64,000 nt of DNA, taken from Candidatus Omnitrophota bacterium. Its GTDB lineage: Bacteria; Omnitrophota; Gorgyraeia; Gygaellales; Profunditerraquicolaceae. A model generated the notes under the pieces. It did no database searches. It had not been told where the DNA came from and worked only from the letters and a program-made list of their open reading frames with translations. Shown here in pieces: positions 1 to 53,007 of the stretch; the stretch's first letter is position 1; each line of letters starts with the position of its first letter. A program made the translations under genes and the position numbers. The stretch is from assembly GCA_028717245.1 (NCBI GenBank), contig JAQUOD010000008.1, forward strand, positions 2,493 to 66,492. Reading direction: 5' to 3'.

Positions 1-2103
1 ATCTCCGGCAAAGGCATAATCTATATTATCCCTCTGGTTAGCGTGCATCTGCACCAGCCTGCCGATACGCTCTTTCTTGTTTTTTGTGGCATTAAGCACA
101 TAAGAGCCGCTGGCAAGAACCCCGGAATAAACCCGCACATAAACCAGCTTTCCCATATGCGGGTCTGCCTGCACTTTAAAGGCCAGCCCCGCAAAAGGCT
201 CTTTGGAATCCGCCTTCCTGGTAATAACTGTCTCGGCATTATCAGGGTCGTGCCCTTCTACGGGAGGAAGATCAGACGGCGAAGGAAGGTATAAATTCAC
301 CGCATCCAGCAGTTTTTGCACGCCTTTGTTTTTAAAAGCTGCCCCGCATAAAACCGGCACCATTTTATTGACGATGGTCCCGCGGCGGATAGCCTGCATC
401 AATTCATCCTGCGTTATGGAATCAGGGGAAGCCAGATATTTTTTCATTAAGTCATCATCGAATGCCGCAGCTTTTTCTACCATGATATGGCGGTAATTTC
501 CTGCTATCTCTTGGTAATCGGCAGGAATATCCTCCACGCGAAAATCTTTGCCTTGCGATTCTTCATCATATATGTAAGCCTTCATATCCAACAGGTCTAT
601 GACCCCGCAAAATTTATCTTCAGCTCCGATAGGTATGACTAAAGGTATGACATTACCTCCTAATTCCTTTTCTATATTCTTAATCACGCTGAAGAAATCC
701 GCGCCCACGCGGTCCATCTTATTAATAAAGGCAATTTTCGGCACATTATATTTATCCGACTGGCGCCATACGGTCTCTGATTGCGGCTCAACCCCGCCTA
801 CGGCGCAAAAAACCGCTATCGCTCCGTCAAGCACCCTTAATGACCGCTCTACCTCTACGGTAAAGTCAACGTGTCCAGGGGTATCAATAACATTAATCTT
901 GTAATCCTTCCAATAACAGGTAGTCGCTGCCGCAGTAATGGTAATGCCTCTCTCCTGCTCTTGTTTCATCCAATCCATCTGTGCCTTACCGTCATGCACT
1001 TCACCTATCTTATGGGATTTACCCGTATAGAATAAAATTCTTTCGGTGAGGGTAGTTTTGCCGGCATCGATGTGCGCCATAATCCCGATATTCCTTACCT
1101 TATCTAAACTGATTTTAGGAGAAACATGGGAGACTTCTTTCTTTTCTTTTTCTTGCGGCTCTTTTTCTTGCGGCGGTTCTGCTACGGGTATTTCTACAGG
1201 TAGTTGCTCCTGTTGCGGCTGTGATGGCTCTGTTTGCGGTTGTGCCTGTATTTCTTCCGTCGGCTTTACCGGTTCTTCTTCCGGCGTAGCCGGCGCTGCT
1301 TCAGGCTGCGCAATGGCCTGCTCCTGGGCAGGCGGCTCTTCTGCCTTTACATGCTGCCTGAGCCCCTCTTCTTGCTCCCTTAATTGGTTCTTTAATTGCA
1401 GTATCTCATCCGATAAAACCTTTACCCTCTCTTCCTTATTCTCTAATTGTTTTTCCAGTTCAGTGTATTCCTCGTTTAATTCATTAAAATCTTTCTTAGG
1501 GACCCACTCGCTGTGTTCTTTCTCGTCCTTCATTTCCTTAACCGTCTTAGCGAGCGCCTCGGACTTATCCGCATGGTTCTGGACTCTATGCTTTAAGGCT
1601 TCGATTTCGTTGGATTTCTCTTTGGTATCCTTTTCCAGCAATTTTATTTTATCGTTTAATTCCTTAACGCTCCTGCTTAAATCTACGTTCTTAGCAAACT
1701 CCGCCTCCAGCGCCTTTTCTTTCTCGGAGAATTTCTTCTGGGTCTCTGAATTCTGCTGTTTAATCTTCTGCAGCGCCTCATCGCTCGTCTTGACCCACTG
1801 CTCCCGCTTAAGCATTTCGTCTTTTAATTCCTGGCCTTTTTTTCTGGCTGCTTCTAACTCATCTCTAATGCGGTTATAATCTGCCTTGGTTTTTTCCAAC
1901 TCGCTTTTTAAGGAAGTAACCTGGTTTCCCAGCTCTAAAATTTTCTGTTGTTTAGTAGCAACTTCAGCTTCCTTATTATCTAACGGACCTTTGGGCTCGC
2001 TTTTCTTTCCCTTCGGCCTGCTTAGAGGATCACCGTAAATGCTCGTAGCATAAAAAGTCAAGATGATTACGCCTAAGAAAACTGTCCAGAATAATAGCAT
2101 CAT
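1..2103 (-). CDS. fusA: Elongation factor G (GTPase N-terminal part; C-terminus lies beyond the window start) in one uninterrupted frame with a 341-aa N-terminal extension (TM helix, long coiled coil, Pro/Glu/Gln-rich linker)
   Basis: The frame is open to the window edge, so it is absent from the ORF track. Manual minus-strand translation of 1080->1 gives [124 protein letters not shown], i.e. EF-G G1-G4 motifs. The same frame stays open upstream through [20 protein letters not shown] to the ATG at 2101-2103 ([24 protein letters not shown]...). The plus-strand ORF 1046..1879 is its antisense shadow. Confidence 0.8.
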
Positions 2104-2173
2104 TTTTCTTTTAAATTATTTTATGAAACCTTTGCACAATTATAACAGAAATTTTAAGTTTGCTAAGATATTT

Positions 2174-3796
2174 TTATTTTCTTAAAATACTATGAGTAGT
2201 AAACTTATGCTCCAGCGCATCCCAGATCTGCCGGGCATCGCTTGCTTTTAATATGGCTTTGCGGGTGGCTTCATCCGCCATGGCCTTGGCGATGATGCGC
2301 AGTATCTGGACTTGCGCCCAGTCATTTTCTTTGGAGGTGAGGATAAGAAAAACAAAATGCGTGGGCTTTCCGTCCGGGGAGTTCCAGTCTATCCCGATAT
2401 CTGACCTGCCAAAGGCTACTACCGGCTTGACCAGAGAACCTAAGCGCGCATGAGGAAGGGCAATGCTTTCTTCTATTGCGGTCCCCATGATATTCTCGCG
2501 CTGCATTACTGATGAATAAAGCGTTTCTTTGGCGGAGGTATTGCCTTGCTCAGAGACAAGGGCACAGAGTTCATGGATAGCGCCGTTTCTCTCCGTGGCT
2601 TTTAATTCCGCGAGTATGGTAGCGCGCGAGAAGAATTCCATTATGCTGATTTCCTTGCGCCTGTTTACTACATATCTAAGCCACGGCCCCAGCGCCACCG
2701 AAGAAATAACCCCGCCGCAGACTATAGCTACAAAAACGGATTCAGAAATCAGGCCATGCTGCAGGGCCAGGATACCAATAACAATCTCCATGGAGCCGCC
2801 GGGAGTATGCGCAATAGCCACGGGCATGCGGTTTGTCTGGCTTAGGCCGCTGAATATCCCGCCTAACCAAGCCCCCAGGAATTTACCAAAAATACCGATG
2901 CCGGTCACAAAAAGCACCAGGAATATATTAAAACTTCCAAAGAAATCTACCTTCAGGCCTATGCCGGTAAAAAATAGCGGGATAAATATGGCATAGACCA
3001 TCTGCGAGATTACCTGCCTGGTCCTTTCGGGAAGCGCTTTTGCTTCCCCGGCCATGATCCCGGCGATAAAAAAACCGATCAAGGCATTCACGCCTATCTT
3101 CTGGAATATAGCGCCAGAGAGGATACCTAAAAGGCAAATGAATGTTAATGAACTCCCCGGTTCAGGTAAATCGTATTTTTTTATTTTAGAGATGACGGAA
3201 TTCGCAAACTTTCTACCGAAGGTCAAACAGAAGATTATAAATATTACTATCACCGCAAAAACGGCAATGAACCTGTCAACTTCTATATTGACGGAGGTAA
3301 TAAAATGCAGGATAAAGGTAAAGATTACCCAGCCGATAATTTCATTCACCGACAAGGCGGACATAATCAGAAAACCCAAATCTGTCTTAATCAGGTCTAA
3401 GTCATGCAGGGCCCTGACGGCAGTAGGCATGGCGCTGATAGTCATCACTGTAGCCATAAAAATAGAAAAAGCCAGTCTTTGATTAGGATCGGTCAGATAA
3501 TACGCGGGTAGAAAAAGGCAGGCAATAAAGGCAAGCGTCATAGGGACTATTATATCGGTCAGGGCAATGATTAAGGCCTTGCCCCTATGCCTCCAGGCGC
3601 TGGAGAAATCCATCTTCAACCCGGTCTCCAGTAAAAAGAATAAAAGCCCCAGCCAGGTTACTGTCTGCAGCATATTCTCCTGGAGGGGTCCTGCGGGAAG
3701 ATGGATTGATACAGGTGCGGCAGAAAACGGCCTAAGATTGTCGGCCCTAAGAGTATGCCTACCAGGATCTCCGCGGTAAGCGCCGGCTGTTTCCAT
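2174..3796 (-). CDS. Cation:proton antiporter (NhaP/Kef, CPA family) membrane domain fused to a C-terminal PTS EIIA(Ntr)-type domain; the 5' part is frameshifted (see 3658..3891)
   Basis: The N-terminal two thirds of the 540-aa ORF is a multi-TM domain (LLFFLLETGLKMDF...). The C-terminus carries GTAIEESIALPHARL...THFVFLILTSKEN, a PTS EIIA type-2 motif. The first ~45 aa of the called ORF (METAGAYRGDPGRH...) are probably not real. Confidence 0.7.
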   Translation of the reverse strand: METAGAYRGDPGRHTLRADNLRPFSAAPVSIHLPAGPLQENMLQTVTWLGLLFFLLETGLKMDFSSAWRHRGKALIIALTDIIVPMTLAFIACLFLPAYYLTDPNQRLAFSIFMATVMTISAMPTAVRALHDLDLIKTDLGFLIMSALSVNEIIGWVIFTFILHFITSVNIEVDRFIAVFAVIVIFIIFCLTFGRKFANSVISKIKKYDLPEPGSSLTFICLLGILSGAIFQKIGVNALIGFFIAGIMAGEAKALPERTRQVISQMVYAIFIPLFFTGIGLKVDFFGSFNIFLVLFVTGIGIFGKFLGAWLGGIFSGLSQTNRMPVAIAHTPGGSMEIVIGILALQHGLISESVFVAIVCGGVISSVALGPWLRYVVNRRKEISIMEFFSRATILAELKATERNGAIHELCALVSEQGNTSAKETLYSSVMQRENIMGTAIEESIALPHARLGSLVKPVVAFGRSDIGIDWNSPDGKPTHFVFLILTSKENDWAQVQILRIIAKAMADEATRKAILKASDARQIWDALEHKFTTHSILRK

Positions 3797-3891
3797 CTAC
3801 GGAAGAGCTCTCCTAAACCTTTAGCCAGCCCTAGAAGGAGGAAAATCTGAATCAGAAAAATAAAAATATTTTCTTCGCTAAAATAATACAT
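3658..3891 (-). pseudogene. N-terminal fragment (first TM helices, ...LGLAKGLGELFRRWKQPALTAEILVGILLGPTILG) of the same antiporter, in a different reading frame
   Basis: The 77-aa ORF overlaps the 5' end of the 2174..3796 ORF by 139 nt. Its sequence is the canonical N-terminus of Kef/NhaP antiporters. The frame switch maps near the C-run at about 3685-3688 on the plus strand. Confidence 0.5.
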
Positions 3892-3921
3892 CTACCCTCC
3901 CCTGCTAGTGAAATTCCGGGG

Positions 3922-4053
3922 TTACTTGGTAGCCTGGTAGATACCATAAGCAATGCCCGCGCTTACTGCCGCGCCTACCACAGCGCAACCGCAAGTGCCC
4001 AGCGTTAACAATACCAGCATCGCCCAGGCAAAGATTAACTTTTTTTTCTTCAT
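3922..4053 (-). CDS. Small putative lipoprotein or secreted peptide (43 aa, MKKKKLIFAWAMLVLLTLGTCGCAVVGAAVSAGIAYGIYQATK)
   Basis: A GGAGG Shine-Dalgarno sits 6 nt upstream. A signal-peptide-like N-terminus is followed by Cys. It is below the ORF-track length cutoff. Confidence 0.35.
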   Translation of the reverse strand: MKKKKLIFAWAMLVLLTLGTCGCAVVGAAVSAGIAYGIYQATK

Positions 4054-4077
4054 TATCTTCCTCCGTAAACAAAAAAA

Positions 4078-4103
4078 GGCAACTCTCTAATAGAGAGTTG
4101 CCT
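4078..4103 (-). terminator. Rho-independent terminator hairpin (ggcaactctct-aat-agagagttgcc) followed by a T-run on the minus strand
   Basis: Perfect 11-bp stem. On the minus strand it is followed by TTTTTTTGTTT. Confidence 0.45.
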
Positions 4104-4348
4104 TAAAAACACCGGTCTTTCTTAAGCCCGATCGTCTTTCTCATTTCGCGTTTGTAAATATTATAGCGCGAAATGAGGGATTATTCAACAAAATCTTGAA
4201 ACCTTCAGTTTATCGTCCTGCACTAATTTATCGCGGTGCAGATGGCAATACTGGGTATGGTTGTAGATACTCAGGATAATCCTGCAAGACGGATACCTGC
4301 AGACCCTGCCTTTATGCGAAGTCTTTACTTTTTTGATCGATAAACTCC

Positions 4349-4552
4349 TTAAGCTACAATGCGCACATTGATAGCGCGCGGGCCCTTTGGAGAGCTTTCT
4401 ACTTCGAAGGTCACTTCTTTATCCTCGGTTAAATCGGTAAACTGCGCATCCACTATGCTGCTCTGATGGAAGAATAGTTCCCTGCCGTCCGTATCGCTGA
4501 TAAAACCAAAACCCCTCTCACGGACTAACTTCTTAATTTTGCCTGTGTGCAT
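4349..4552 (-). CDS. Cold-shock protein, CspA family
   Basis: KGFGFI and VFVHxS cold-shock domain motifs; 67 aa. Confidence 0.9.
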   Translation of the reverse strand: MHTGKIKKLVRERGFGFISDTDGRELFFHQSSIVDAQFTDLTEDKEVTFEVESSPKGPRAINVRIVA

Positions 4553-4621
4553 CTTAACTCCCTCCTTTTATAAAAAATAAGGCCCGCCTCATAAATGTTG
4601 CGGGCCGTATTTCTTCTTAGG

Positions 4622-4822
4622 TTATAACTTGACTACGTTCGTAGCCTGTTCGCCTTTAGGGCCTTTTTCAATCTGAAATTCGACCTGCTGGCCTTCCTCT
4701 AAAGATTTGTAACCTTCACCCTGAATCGCGCTATGATGCACGAATACGTCACTGCCCGATTCGGGGGTGATGAATCCATAACCTTTTTGGTTATTGAACC
4801 ACTTTACTGTTCCTTTTGCCAT
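4622..4822 (-). CDS. Cold-shock protein, CspA family
   Basis: [33 protein letters not shown]; 66 aa. Confidence 0.9.
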
Positions 4823-51490: not shown

Positions 51491-52939
51491 ATGAACAGAT
51501 ATTTCTTGTATGCCCGCAAATCCACCGATTCGGAAGACAGGCAAGTCCTCTCTATCGAAGCGCAACTTGCGGAATTAAGAGAATTCGCTAAGCGACAAAA
51601 CCTGTTTATTAAGGAAGAGCTATTTGAAGCGAAGACCGCGAAGCAGCCCGGACGAGAAGTTTTTAACTTGTTGGTGAAACGCATTGAGCGAGACGAGGCA
51701 AACGGAATACTTGCCTGGCATCCTGACCGCTTAGCGAGAAACTCGATGGATGGCGGGAAGATAATTTACTTAACCGACACAGGCAAACTGGTGGATTTGC
51801 GGTTTCCTACTTACAGCTTCGAGAATACGGCACAAGGAAAGTTTATGCTCTCGATTATCTTCGGCCAGTCGAAGTATTTTGTTGATAATCTCTCTGAGAA
51901 CGTCTTGCGCGGCTTCCGCCAGAAGCTAAGGCGCGGTGAATATCCGGGCTTTGCTCCTTTAGGTTATAAAAATAATATCCTTGATCACTCAATAGAAGTC
52001 GTGCCGGAAGCCGCGCATAAGATTAGAGAACTTTTCGAACTGTATGCGACTGGCCGCTACTCAATGGAAGAGTTAAGAAAATTGGCGACTGCCTCTGGCT
52101 TGGCCAGCAGAAGGAAACATGTCAGGCTGAGCCTTAGCAATATCGAGCGCATCCTCAAGAATCCTTTTTATTTCGGCGCATTCAGATTTAAAGGCGAACT
52201 CTACGAAGGCACGCATCCGCCGATTATAACTAAAGAACTTTTTAATAAAGCGCAGGTCGCGCTTAGGCTACGCAGTAAGCCGCACATTAACGCACCGCAT
52301 TATCATGTCTTTCGCGGTTTTATACAATGCGCCGAGTGCGGCTGTATGATCACTTCCGAAATCCAGAAACAGAGATATATCTATTATCGTTGCACTCGTA
52401 AGCGCGGCGGATGCGGGCAACCTTTCTTGCGAGAGGATGCGCTCGTCAGTCAAATTAGCGAAGCCATCGAAAAAGTTGCGATTAGCACAGACTTAAAGAA
52501 ATTTTTGTTTGATAAGATAGATAGCGAGGCTTCTGCTGGTCTACCTCCCTCTGCTTCTACCCTTGCCCTCAATAACAGGATTACAGAGATAGACCGAAAA
52601 CTTAATATGCTCTTAGATAGCTACATTAGTCAGGTTATAAGCGAAGAGGAATACAAGAAAAAGAAGTCAATTTTGCTCAGTGAGAAGTTAGAATTGAAGG
52701 AAAAATTGACAAGCGATGAGGGCAAGGGTAAAGTTTGGCTCGAACTGGCTCGAACTATTGTAACTTCTGCTGGCCAAGCCAGTTACATAGCGCGGAAGGG
52801 ATCGCTGGAAGAAAAACGGGAGTTTGTGAAAAAGATTGGCTCGAACTTTCGGCTCGCCGACGCTAAGTTGCGTTTTGACTACAAGTTACCTTATGTTTAT
52901 TTCGCCCAAAAATGGCCGAAAGAAAAATGGGGTGGCTGA
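51491..52939 (+). CDS. Large serine recombinase (resolvase/invertase catalytic domain, recombinase domain, zinc ribbon, coiled coil)
   Basis: YARKSTDSEDRQVLSIEAQ (catalytic Ser region), zinc ribbon CAECGCM...YYRCTRKRGGCGQ. GGAGG Shine-Dalgarno 7 nt upstream. Confidence 0.85.
   Translation: MNRYFLYARKSTDSEDRQVLSIEAQLAELREFAKRQNLFIKEELFEAKTAKQPGREVFNLLVKRIERDEANGILAWHPDRLARNSMDGGKIIYLTDTGKLVDLRFPTYSFENTAQGKFMLSIIFGQSKYFVDNLSENVLRGFRQKLRRGEYPGFAPLGYKNNILDHSIEVVPEAAHKIRELFELYATGRYSMEELRKLATASGLASRRKHVRLSLSNIERILKNPFYFGAFRFKGELYEGTHPPIITKELFNKAQVALRLRSKPHINAPHYHVFRGFIQCAECGCMITSEIQKQRYIYYRCTRKRGGCGQPFLREDALVSQISEAIEKVAISTDLKKFLFDKIDSEASAGLPPSASTLALNNRITEIDRKLNMLLDSYISQVISEEEYKKKKSILLSEKLELKEKLTSDEGKGKVWLELARTIVTSAGQASYIARKGSLEEKREFVKKIGSNFRLADAKLRFDYKLPYVYFAQKWPKEKWGG
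52842..52933. repeat. Right copy of the 92-bp inverted repeat (the last 31 codons of the recombinase plus the first nucleotides of the tRNA-His 3' end)
   Basis: See 51260..51351. Confidence 0.85.
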
Positions 52940-53007
52940 CGGGGATCGAACCCGCAAAACCTCTAGAGCCACAGTCTAGCGCTCTGACCGATTGAGCTAC
53001 AGCCACC
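52928..53007 (-). tRNA. tRNA-His (anticodon GTG) with extra 5' G-1 and encoded CCA
   Basis: Cloverleaf folded by hand: acceptor GTGGCTG/CAGCCAC, D-arm GCTC...GAGC, anticodon stem CTAGA/TCTAG with loop CTGTGGC, T-loop GGGTTCGATCCCC. Confidence 0.8.

What the first reader, a model, noticed from the sequence alone, without database searches (positions are those of the whole stretch)
1..2103. EF-G is in one open frame with a 341-aa N-terminal membrane-anchor, coiled-coil and PQE-linker extension
Manual translation of the minus strand from the ATG at 2101-2103 shows no stop codon, and the frame runs straight into a canonical EF-G G domain.

- The extension starts with a predicted TM helix ([24 protein letters not shown]).
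- About 200 aa of heptad-like coiled coil follows ([55 protein letters not shown]...).
- A Pro/Gln/Glu-rich linker ([70 protein letters not shown]) connects to [19 protein letters not shown].
- The conserved residues preceding the P-loop (LDKVRNIGI) are in frame but no ATG, GTG or TTG precedes them.
- The only canonical start is the Met of [10 protein letters not shown], with an AGGA 11 nt upstream, and using it would delete conserved residues.

So this is either a genuinely membrane-tethered EF-G paralog, two genes merged by a lost stop, or EF-G initiating at a non-canonical codon. The gene is also not in a str-operon context: an antiporter lies upstream and no rpsG is present.
Basis: partly seen in the sequence, partly recalled or inferred. 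Interest (0 to 1): 0.6.

Follow-up and report, generated by a model that had tools for sequence, protein, structure and literature searches.

The report
Membrane-tethered elongation factor G
In this Omnitrophota bacterium and many relatives, a fully canonical translation factor EF-G is made as one protein with a membrane anchor, a long coiled-coil stalk and a flexible acidic leash, an arrangement I could not find described anywhere and which GenBank's annotation of this genome cuts off.

Summary
Window 2103..1 (minus strand) is one open frame of 701 codons. It encodes a TM helix, a heptad coiled coil, a Pro/Gln/Glu linker and then a canonical EF-G.

It is not an artefact:
- An independent assembly is base-identical across the junction.
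- More than 120 protein clusters, 36 species-representative genomes and 61 of 80 metagenome loci carry the same in-frame fusion.
- Fused genes have no conserved start codon at the EF-G N-terminus. All unfused relatives have an ATG there.
- The extension is under purifying selection (dN/dS 0.12-0.26).
- Lys/Arg counts are 0 before the TM helix and 156 after it, which places EF-G in the cytoplasm.

The EF-G moiety scores 1050 bits on TIGR00484 (cutoff 659).

GenBank (MDD4980838.1) starts this gene at an ATC codon, which drops the extension.

Fused EF-Gs form one clade beside free, non-str-operon Omnitrophota EF-Gs. Two genomes carry both types. Several lineages, including this organism's nearest relatives, have deleted only the EF-G part.

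So this is most likely a membrane-tethered EF-G paralog, not the sole EF-G. Its function is inferred, not shown. I found no description of it in the literature.

The parts
2139..2166 (-). Sigma-70-like promoter, TTAGCA-16 nt-TATAAT with a TG extension. It lies in the 70-nt gap between the antiporter gene and the ATG.
   Evidence: It is the only minus-strand promoter-like site in window 1-2400, matching 10 of 12 consensus positions. This is a consensus match only; the number of such sites in the region is not above chance.
2101..2103 (-). ATG start codon of the fused gene. A second ATG follows directly at 2098-2100.
   Evidence: All complete fused orthologs also start with ATG directly before a hydrophobic helix.
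2032..2103 (-). N-terminal transmembrane anchor, aa 1-24 ([24 protein letters not shown]).
   Evidence: The Kyte-Doolittle mean over 19 aa is 2.24, and the AlphaFold2 model has a helix at aa 2-22. Across 36 fused orthologs there are 0 Lys/Arg before the helix and 156 in the 15 aa after it. This indicates an N-out, C-in topology.
1978..2031 (-). Basic, disordered segment next to the membrane, aa 25-42 ([18 protein letters not shown]).
   Evidence: AlphaFold2 pLDDT is below 50 for aa 25-42. There are 5 Lys/Arg in the first 15 aa after the helix.
1510..1977 (-). Coiled-coil stalk helix 1, aa 43-198. It contains the conserved motifs RExWV (W103) and KEKxLxxEFxKNVxL (F136).
   Evidence: AlphaFold2 predicts a single 156-residue helix with pLDDT above 90. 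Hydrophobicity has a sharp 3.5-residue periodicity: power 99.6 against 6.9 +/- 6.9 in shuffles, with 0 of 2000 shuffles reaching it. Invariant columns are listed.
1498..1509 (-). Conserved helix break, E-W-V-P (aa 199-202).
   Evidence: AlphaFold2 breaks the helix at aa 199-202. W200, V201 and P202 are invariant or nearly so in alignments A1, A2 and A4.
1369..1497 (-). Stalk helix 2, aa 203-245. It contains the conserved KxxFNxLNEEYxxLEKxLE motif.
   Evidence: 3.5-residue periodicity, z = 5.4. K203, F206, L209 and N210 are invariant.
1114..1368 (-). Disordered, acidic Pro/Gln/Glu-rich linker, aa 246-330.
   Evidence: AlphaFold2 pLDDT is 40-56 with no secondary structure. In orthologs the last 90 aa are 13% Pro with a median net charge of -12. 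The length varies, but always by whole codons. dN/dS is 0.23-0.26.
1111..1113 (-). ATC codon (Ile331) that the GenBank annotation of this genome uses as the EF-G start.
   Evidence: P0101, which is MDD4980838.1 and MDD5592737.1, begins [11 protein letters not shown] and is otherwise 100% identical.
1..1113 (-). EF-G moiety: G domain with the G' insertion and the start of domain II, aa 331-701. It continues beyond the window for about 327 more aa.
   Evidence: In the window it scores 579 bits on TIGR00484. The full 698-aa moiety scores 1049.8 bits against a cutoff of 659.4. Pfam finds GTP_EFTU and EF-G_D2. The motifs [24 protein letters not shown] and HEVDSS are all present.
1051..1077 (-). P-loop AHIDAGKTT (aa 343-351).

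Best explanation
The gene encodes a single polypeptide of about 1028 aa: a membrane-tethered but otherwise canonical EF-G.

Architecture:
- An N-terminal hydrophobic helix anchors the protein in the inner membrane with almost nothing outside the cell (N-out, C-in).
- A short basic segment follows.
- Then come about 200 residues of heptad coiled coil. This is a 156-residue helix of roughly 23 nm if straight, a conserved EWVP kink, and a 43-residue helix. A coiled coil implies at least a dimer.
- An acidic, disordered Pro/Gln/Glu leash of 85 aa follows (about 70-120 aa in relatives).
- Last comes a complete five-domain EF-G with all catalytic motifs.

Shown here:
- The frame is continuous.
- The fusion is conserved across a whole Omnitrophota clade.
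- Every segment is under purifying selection.
- The topology signal is strong.
- The fused genes lack any conserved internal start.
- The catalytic part matches EF-G at equivalog level.

Inferred:
- The anchor module is itself a functional membrane scaffold. Its motifs are conserved, and it survives as a stand-alone gene in lineages that deleted the EF-G part.
- The fused gene is a paralog that coexists with a free EF-G. It is probably not the only EF-G.
For: In the window:
- The frame is open for 701 codons, against 49 and 60 stops in the other two frames.
- An independent assembly is identical across the junction.

Conservation of the fusion:
- More than 120 clusters of 985-1172 aa cover 100% of the query at 54-74% identity.
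- 36 fused loci were found among GTDB species representatives.
- 61 of 80 metagenome loci that carry the anchor are fused in frame. Two more are fused apart from a frameshift, in one case inside a poly-A run.
- Fused genes have no conserved start at the junction. Unfused genes always have one.
- dN/dS in unsaturated pairs is 0.16-0.22 for the TM helix, 0.12-0.16 for the stalk, 0.23-0.26 for the linker and 0.04-0.05 for EF-G.

Structure of the extension:
- Lys/Arg counts are 0 before and 156 after the TM helix across 36 orthologs.
- AlphaFold2 predicts a TM helix, one long helix, a kink, a second helix and a disordered linker.
- Heptad periodicity has z = 13.5.
- Invariant residues are W103, F136, K203, F206, L209 and N210.

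The EF-G moiety:
- TIGR00484 scores 1049.8 bits against a cutoff of 659.4.
- Only one position differs consistently between fused and free EF-Gs: K638 versus Q638. Overall conservation is equal, 0.79 versus 0.82.

Evidence that it is a paralog:
- Fused EF-G domains form one clade beside the free Omnitrophota EF-Gs.
- Both types occur on one contig (L068) and in one MAG (L039 and L052).
- Stand-alone anchor genes sit in the same syntenic slot as fused genes and nest inside the fused clade. One such group is sister to this window's sequence. Those lineages must therefore have another EF-G.
Against: - No experiment shows membrane insertion, the size of the protein in cells, or its activity.
- Support for a single origin of the fused EF-G domains is only moderate: 64 of 100 NJ bootstraps.
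- Matching contig lengths between the fused and free EF-G hit lists found no shared contigs. That result is inconclusive.
- A long disordered linker is also what a protease-released precursor would look like.
- The promoter match is a consensus hit only.
Confidence: 0.75

Rival explanations
1. The fused gene is the only EF-G in this genome and in most genomes that carry it. In that case all translocation and ribosome recycling in these very small cells would be done by a membrane-tethered, oligomeric EF-G.
For: - The fused EF-G moiety is as conserved as the free type and keeps every catalytic motif.
- Among the sampled species representatives, the fused and free sets of assemblies are almost disjoint.
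- The complete chromosome CP070807.1 gave only a fused hit (L065).
- None of the 80 metagenome loci has a free EF-G within 8 kb.
Against: - Both types coexist on contig L068 and in MAG JAHJCI01.
- At least three or four lineages nested inside the fused clade have deleted the EF-G moiety cleanly. One of these is the sister group of this window's sequence. Such a deletion would be lethal without another EF-G.
- A preprint reports S12-S7-EF-G-EF-Tu operons in several complete Omnitrophota chromosomes (10.64898/2026.06.07.730766).
Confidence: 0.2
2. The fusion is a latent precursor. EF-G is stored at the membrane and released by regulated cleavage within the disordered linker, so the active species is free EF-G.
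For: - The linker is long, disordered and exposed to proteases.
- Membrane proteases lie nearby in some loci. L007 has a PDZ plus M48 peptidase. L068 has a Trypsin_2 peptidase and an M48 peptidase between the fused and free copies.
Against: - No conserved cleavage motif appears in the linker. It is the least conserved segment and varies in length.
- The protease neighbours are not conserved across loci. The recurrent neighbours are pheST, a MgsA-like ATPase, a PPIase and UvrD.
- Nothing here tests processing directly.
Confidence: 0.12
3. EF-G is translated separately from a non-canonical internal start (the ATC chosen by GenBank), or the open frame is an assembly or sequencing artefact that merged two genes.
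For: - GenBank annotates a 698-aa EF-G from the ATC codon.
- An out-of-frame ATG at window 1125-1127 would give [10 protein letters not shown]... and a TAA stop for the upstream gene if one T were added. This was my own test hypothesis, read.
- Stand-alone anchor genes do exist.
Against: - The same in-frame fusion occurs in more than 120 clusters and about 100 loci from unrelated samples.
- An independent assembly is identical at the junction.
- The codon aligned with the ATC is not conserved, and most fused orthologs have no ATG, GTG or TTG nearby.
- The linker evolves by whole-codon indels with dN/dS below 0.3.
- No promoter-like site lies inside the gene.
Confidence: 0.03

Closest known systems
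Canonical bacterial EF-G (FusA; EFG I subfamily, TIGR00484)
   Same: It has five domains and all the G motifs, including the domain IV loops. It scores 1050 bits on the equivalog model. The precomputed Pfam architecture is GTP_EFTU, D2, EFG_III, EFG_IV and EFG_C.
   Different: It carries an N-terminal membrane anchor, coiled coil and leash of about 330 aa. It lies outside the str operon, with no rpsL, rpsG or tuf nearby.
Second EF-G copies (EFG II/EF-G2, spdEFG1/2, P. aeruginosa EF-G1A/1B; Margus et al. 2011, PMC3150367; Palmer et al. 2013, PMC3832671)
   Same: It is probably an extra EF-G gene outside the str operon that coexists with another EF-G.
   Different: In the known paralogs it is the catalytic body that diverges, and none is described with a TM segment or N-terminal extension. 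Here the catalytic body is almost unchanged, with one fixed substitution, and the novelty is an added localisation module. The EF-G2 model NF009377 scores 517 bits against a cutoff of 890.
RNase Y of Firmicutes (N-terminal TM helix, then a coiled-coil or disordered region, then KH and HD catalytic domains)
   Same: [quoted passage not shown] This comparison rests on general knowledge. RNase_Y_N was seen only as a neighbouring gene in L004 and L008.
   Different: The sequence is unrelated: the extension matches no Pfam, NCBIfam or PDB family above threshold. The enzyme is also different.
FtsY (the SRP receptor) and LepA/EF4
   Same: Both are translation-associated GTPases that act at, or are stored at, the membrane. 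FtsY has an acidic N-terminal membrane-binding extension. This comparison rests on general knowledge. One paper proposes a role for LepA in membrane-tethered synthesis (PMC10138997).
   Different: Their membrane association is peripheral or reversible, and they are not EF-G itself. Here a bona fide translocase is covalently fused to an integral anchor.

Membership tests
EF-G (TIGR00484 equivalog, EFG I) | Whole-protein score above the curated cutoff of 659.4 bits | tested here: met
   P0101, the EF-G moiety of this genome, scores 1049.8 bits. The fused ortholog P0007 scores 1043.4 bits. The half present in the window scores 579.5 bits.
EF-G (TIGR00484 equivalog, EFG I) | Five-domain architecture with intact G1-G4 motifs and domain IV tip loops | tested here: met
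   Pfam finds GTP_EFTU, EF-G_D2, EFG_III, EFG_IV and EFG_C. The motifs [24 protein letters not shown] and HEVDSS are present.
EF-G (TIGR00484 equivalog, EFG I) | Gene located in the str operon (rpsL-rpsG-fusA-tuf) | tested here: not met
   tblastn finds no S12, S7 or EF-Tu in the window or within 6-8 kb of any Omnitrophota-type locus. The same queries detected all 15 control operons.
EF-G (TIGR00484 equivalog, EFG I) | Ribosome-dependent GTPase, translocation and recycling activity | not testable with these tools
   This needs biochemistry.
EF-G2 / EFG II-like paralogs | Score above the cutoff of NF009377 (890 bits) or NF058620 (1000 bits) | tested here: not met
   The scores are 516.7 and 502.7 bits.
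Tet(M)/Tet(O) ribosomal protection proteins | Score above the cutoff of NF012153 (775 bits) | tested here: not met
   The score is 382.6 bits.
Single-pass N-out/C-in membrane anchor | Hydrophobic helix of about 19-25 aa, with positive charges on the cytoplasmic side only | tested here: met
   The Kyte-Doolittle 19-aa mean is above 2 in 34 of 36 orthologs. The two exceptions reflect a wrong start-codon choice in my script. Lys/Arg counts are 0 before and 156 after the helix. AlphaFold2 predicts a helix at aa 2-22.
Single-pass N-out/C-in membrane anchor | Demonstrated insertion in the membrane | not testable with these tools
   This needs fractionation or reporter fusions.
Left-handed coiled coil | Continuous heptad (3.5-residue) hydrophobic periodicity over a long helix | tested here: met
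   Power at a period of 3.5 is 99.6 against 6.9 +/- 6.9 in shuffles, and 0 of 2000 shuffles reach it. AlphaFold2 predicts a 156-residue helix with pLDDT above 90. The only PDB profile hits are generic coiled coils.
Left-handed coiled coil | Oligomeric state (dimer or trimer) | not tested
   No multimer prediction or experiment was done.

The most novel reading that the evidence does not exclude
The tethered protein is the sole or main EF-G in this and many other Omnitrophota. Under this reading the conserved anchor module is a scaffold that organises a translation zone near the membrane. Elongation in these ultra-small cells would then be spatially confined to the membrane, perhaps linked to their very large membrane-anchored proteins.
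Probability: 0.2. Interest if true: 0.9.

Novelty: new variant of a known kind. Interest (0 to 1): 0.72.

Why it matters
Translation elongation factors are normally treated as freely diffusing cytoplasmic proteins. Here a widespread clade of uncultured bacteria keeps an otherwise unaltered EF-G covalently leashed to the membrane. The leash is a conserved, probably oligomeric, coiled-coil stalk.

If the protein is active, translocation can be driven by a tethered factor. That would give a natural system for asking how the spatial supply of EF-G shapes translation at membranes.

There is also a practical point. Homology-guided annotation silently removes the extension: GenBank calls this gene a 698-aa EF-G starting at ATC. 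The architecture is therefore under-reported in public records.

Tried and rejected
1. A 1-nt deletion hypothesis.
   - The junction holds an out-of-frame ATG at window 1125-1127.
   - With one extra T, the upstream ORF would end at a TAA and EF-G would start [10 protein letters not shown].
   - The first homolog search seemed to favour this, because it found only stand-alone anchor proteins.
   - I rejected it for three reasons: the whole-protein search found more than 120 fused clusters, 36 genome loci are fused, and an independent assembly is identical at the junction.

2. Looking up P0101's own contig to see what lies downstream of the gene. The protein was not on record.

3. Looking for a second EF-G in fused-gene genomes by matching contig lengths between the fused and free EF-G hit lists. 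There were no matches, which is inconclusive.

4. Searching for a known domain in the extension. Pfam, NCBIfam and a PDB profile search gave only sub-threshold generic coiled-coil or SMC-like hits.

5. Literature searches for a tethered or N-terminally extended EF-G. Nothing relevant turned up.

6. A metagenome scan with the broad anchor alignment A2 failed because it had no conserved stretch to search with. I repeated it with the narrower alignment A4.

7. Tetranucleotide comparison of the two JAHJCI01 contigs (L039 and L052). They are compatible with one genome, but the test does not discriminate.
Full report
**1. Observation**

The minus strand of window 2103..1 translates as 701 codons without a stop. 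The other two frames contain 49 and 60 stops. At this base composition, the chance that the 330 extension codons stay open is about 1e-9.

The peptide begins [24 protein letters not shown]. It continues through about 200 residues rich in Glu, Lys, Leu and Gln, then a Pro/Gln/Glu-rich stretch, and runs directly into ...[24 protein letters not shown].

Residues 330-701 match EF-G:
- They cover profile positions 4-372 of TIGR00484 at 579 bits.
- Pfam finds GTP_EFTU and EF-G domain 2.

No in-frame ATG, GTG or TTG occurs between codon 191 and the Met at codon 342.

The gene upstream is a Na+/H+ exchanger fused to a PTS EIIA-2 domain. tblastn with E. coli S12, S7 and EF-Tu finds nothing in the window, although it detects all three in 15 control str operons.

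**2. Is it an artefact?**

My first protein search used the extension alone. It returned only six proteins of 226-315 aa, each ending just after the acidic tail. None is followed by EF-G.

That made a merged-gene artefact look plausible, and the junction offered a mechanism. An out-of-frame ATG lies at 1125-1127. With one extra T in the adjacent T-run, it would start [10 protein letters not shown]..., and the upstream frame would reach a TAA.

The idea failed every test:
- A search with the whole 701-aa product found more than 120 protein clusters of 985-1172 aa. They cover 100% of the query at 54-74% identity and carry all EF-G Pfam domains.
- A scan of GTDB species representatives returned 65 Omnitrophota-type loci. 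In 36 of them EF-G is preceded in frame by 290-401 codons that begin with ATG and a hydrophobic helix.
- A metagenome scan with the anchor module returned 80 loci:
  - 61 are fused in frame.
  - 7 are cut by contig ends.
  - 2 are frameshifted. One of these is inside a poly-A run and has no start codon for EF-G.
  - 10 are genuinely stand-alone.
- A contig assembled independently from another sequencing run (Logan SRR22315508) is 100% identical to window 770-4669, across the junction.

**3. Is it translated as one protein?**

Start codons. In the fused genes, 25 of 36 have no ATG, GTG or TTG within -12 to +3 codons of the EF-G N-terminus. The few that occur are at non-conserved positions, or are TTG codons for a conserved Leu. 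By contrast, all 25 unfused Omnitrophota-type EF-Gs and all 15 outgroup EF-Gs have an ATG at the N-terminus, with stops just upstream.

The internal Met. The Met of [14 protein letters not shown] is a conserved internal residue in unfused EF-Gs too. In several fused orthologs it is replaced by Ile or Val.

The GenBank start. The codon aligned with the window's ATC encodes I, V, Y, F or T in relatives, so no near-cognate start is conserved.

Selection. In pairs where dS is not saturated, dN/dS is 0.16-0.22 for the TM helix, 0.12-0.16 for the stalk, 0.23-0.26 for the linker and 0.04-0.05 for EF-G. Linker length changes only by whole codons.

Promoter. The only promoter-like site on this strand lies just upstream of the ATG at 2103: TTAGCA-16-TATAAT with a TG extension, at 2166-2139. 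This is a consensus match only.

GenBank nevertheless annotates this genome's gene as a 698-aa EF-G beginning MSLDK, which means it starts at the ATC codon at 1111-1113 (MDD4980838.1 and MDD5592737.1). That looks like a start chosen by homology, and it hides the extension.

**4. Anatomy of the extension**

Membrane anchor and topology. Across 36 orthologs, the 0-6 residues before the hydrophobic helix contain no Lys or Arg at all. The 15 residues after it contain 156 in total. By the positive-inside rule, the N-terminus is outside and everything else, EF-G included, is cytoplasmic.

Predicted structure. An AlphaFold2 model of aa 1-345, built on a 50-sequence alignment (mean pLDDT 76), gives the following:

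| Residues | Prediction |
|---|---|
| 2-22 | TM helix |
| 23-42 | Disordered |
| 43-198 | One helix, pLDDT above 90 |
| 199-202 | Break |
| 203-245 | Second helix |
| 246-345 | Disordered |

Coiled coil. The alignment-averaged hydrophobicity of the long helix has a sharp peak at exactly 3.5 residues. The power is 99.6 against 6.9 +/- 6.9 in shuffles (z = 13.5), and 0 of 2000 shuffles reach it. That indicates an uninterrupted heptad register over about 22 heptads.

Conserved motifs. The stalk is not just generic coiled coil. W103, F136, K203, F206, L209 and N210 are invariant. The motifs RREEWVxKSE, KEKELQEEFxKNVDL and [24 protein letters not shown] are conserved in fused and stand-alone forms alike.

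Linker. It is about 13% Pro, has a net charge of about -12, and varies in length.

Family. No Pfam, NCBIfam or PDB family matches above threshold. An exhaustive search of cluster representatives found 127 relatives at E <= 1e-3 and 24 at E <= 1e-30.

**5. The EF-G moiety**

The full moiety scores 1049.8 bits on the EF-G equivalog model, against a cutoff of 659.4. It scores far below the cutoffs for EF-G2 and for Tet-type ribosomal protection proteins.

All G motifs and the domain IV loops are intact. Comparing 36 fused EF-Gs with 25 free Omnitrophota-type EF-Gs, only one column differs consistently: K638 in all fused sequences, and Q in all free and outgroup sequences. Mean conservation is equal, at 0.79 and 0.82.

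This is a working-grade EF-G, not a decaying copy.

**6. Evolution, and whether it is the only EF-G**

Phylogeny. In an NJ tree of EF-G domains, the fused sequences form one clade (bootstrap 64 of 100). It sits beside the free Omnitrophota and Auribacterota type. The two together separate from the Ignavibacteria outgroup in 100 of 100 replicates.

Genomic context:
- Neither type lies in a str operon.
- About a third of fused loci share the order pheS-pheT-MgsA-like ATPase-fused EF-G-PPIase-UvrD.

Coexistence. Both types occur together on one contig (L068, 3 kb apart) and in one MAG (L039 and L052).

Stand-alone anchor genes:
- They occupy the same syntenic slots as fused genes. L001 matches L007, L004 matches L008, and L133, L137 and L153 match L015.
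- In a tree of the anchor module they nest inside the fused clade. One group (P0001-3) is sister to this window's sequence.
- So the EF-G part has been deleted cleanly at least three or four times while the anchor was kept.

Two things follow. The anchor has a function of its own. And those lineages, including close relatives of this organism, must have had another EF-G.

A recent preprint also reports S12-S7-EF-G-EF-Tu operons in several complete Omnitrophota chromosomes (10.64898/2026.06.07.730766).

I therefore rate 'a paralog alongside a free EF-G' at roughly 75% and 'the sole EF-G' at roughly 20% for this genome. I could not test it directly.

**7. Mechanism**

Shown: a single ORF, a conserved fusion, selection on every segment, the topology signal, and an intact catalytic body.

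Inferred:
- The first helix targets the nascent chain to the membrane and anchors it.
- The stalk oligomerises and projects about 23-30 nm into the cytoplasm.
- The acidic leash gives EF-G the freedom to dock on ribosomes within a few tens of nanometres of the membrane.
- This raises local translocase and recycling activity for translation near the membrane.

A regulated-release precursor is the main functional rival. Protease genes lie nearby in two loci, but they are not conserved neighbours.

**8. Comparison with what is known, and novelty**

The catalytic part is a member of canonical EF-G in every sequence test. It fails only the genomic-context criterion (str operon).

Known EF-G paralogs (EFG II/EF-G2, spdEFG1/2, P. 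aeruginosa EF-G1B) diverge in the catalytic body. None is described with a membrane anchor (PMC3150367; PMC3832671).

The closest analogues by design are RNase Y (TM helix, coiled coil, enzyme), FtsY and membrane-associated LepA. This comparison rests on general knowledge, for LepA. None of them is related in sequence to the extension.

Six full-text searches found no description of a tethered EF-G.

I class it as a new variant of a known kind. It is real, widespread and currently mis-annotated, and its function is unproven.

Noticed in passing
window 1111-1113 (minus strand): GenBank's annotation of this genome (MDD4980838.1 and MDD5592737.1, 698 aa) starts EF-G at an ATC codon, which drops the 330-aa extension. 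NCBI-sourced fused orthologs carry no product name. The architecture is therefore probably under-annotated in public records.
   Followed up: yes
L001-L006; L091-L094, L096, L103, L133, L137, L151, L153: Stand-alone genes encode the TM and coiled-coil anchor, with or without the acidic tail. They sit in the same syntenic slot as fused genes and nest inside the fused clade. This points to repeated clean deletion of the EF-G moiety with the anchor retained.
   Followed up: yes
L037-L070 (unfused class); L042 and L051 are Auribacterota: The free EF-G of Omnitrophota and Auribacterota is also outside the str operon, with no S12, S7 or EF-Tu within 6 kb. Yet a preprint reports str-type operons with EF-G in some complete Omnitrophota genomes. 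The phylum may carry up to three kinds of EF-G locus.
   Followed up: partly
L109 8100-8160: In one fused ortholog the anchor and EF-G are in different frames. The break is at a poly-A run (A8...A7) at the junction, and there is no start codon for EF-G. This is most likely a homopolymer sequencing error, though a slippery site is possible.
   Followed up: partly
L049 (JAIWAR010000002.1): A 70-kb contig with an Omnitrophota-type free EF-G is binned in a MAG labelled Methanosarcinales archaeon. This may be a binning artefact. It could be related to the known association of Omnitrophota (Velamenicoccus) with Methanosaeta.
   Followed up: no
window 2174-3796 (minus strand): A Na+/H+ exchanger (CPA2-like) is fused to a C-terminal PTS EIIA-2 or PtsN-like domain. 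The same architecture occurs near the fused EF-G in L007.
   Followed up: no
window 51491-52939 (+) and 52928-53006 (-): A large serine recombinase gene (Resolvase, Recombinase and Zn-ribbon domains) ends next to a tRNA-His gene. tRNA-Arg and tRNA-Pro lie about 1.6 kb further on. This may be the boundary of an integrated element.
   Followed up: no
P0200 (724 aa) and P0209 (529 aa): These proteins have a similar coiled-coil N-terminal region, fused instead to MshEN (both) and PilZ (P0200) c-di-GMP-binding domains. In P0200 the match starts at residue 4, so it may include a TM helix. The anchor-like module may be reused to tether other cytoplasmic domains, but the similarity could be only compositional (E = 6e-10 and 4e-8).
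   Followed up: partly
L068 1-8076 (JAQVMQ010000001.1): A fused EF-G (1036 aa) and a free EF-G (695 aa) lie on the same strand 3 kb apart. They are separated by a PIN-domain gene, a trypsin-like peptidase gene and an M48 peptidase gene.
   Followed up: partly
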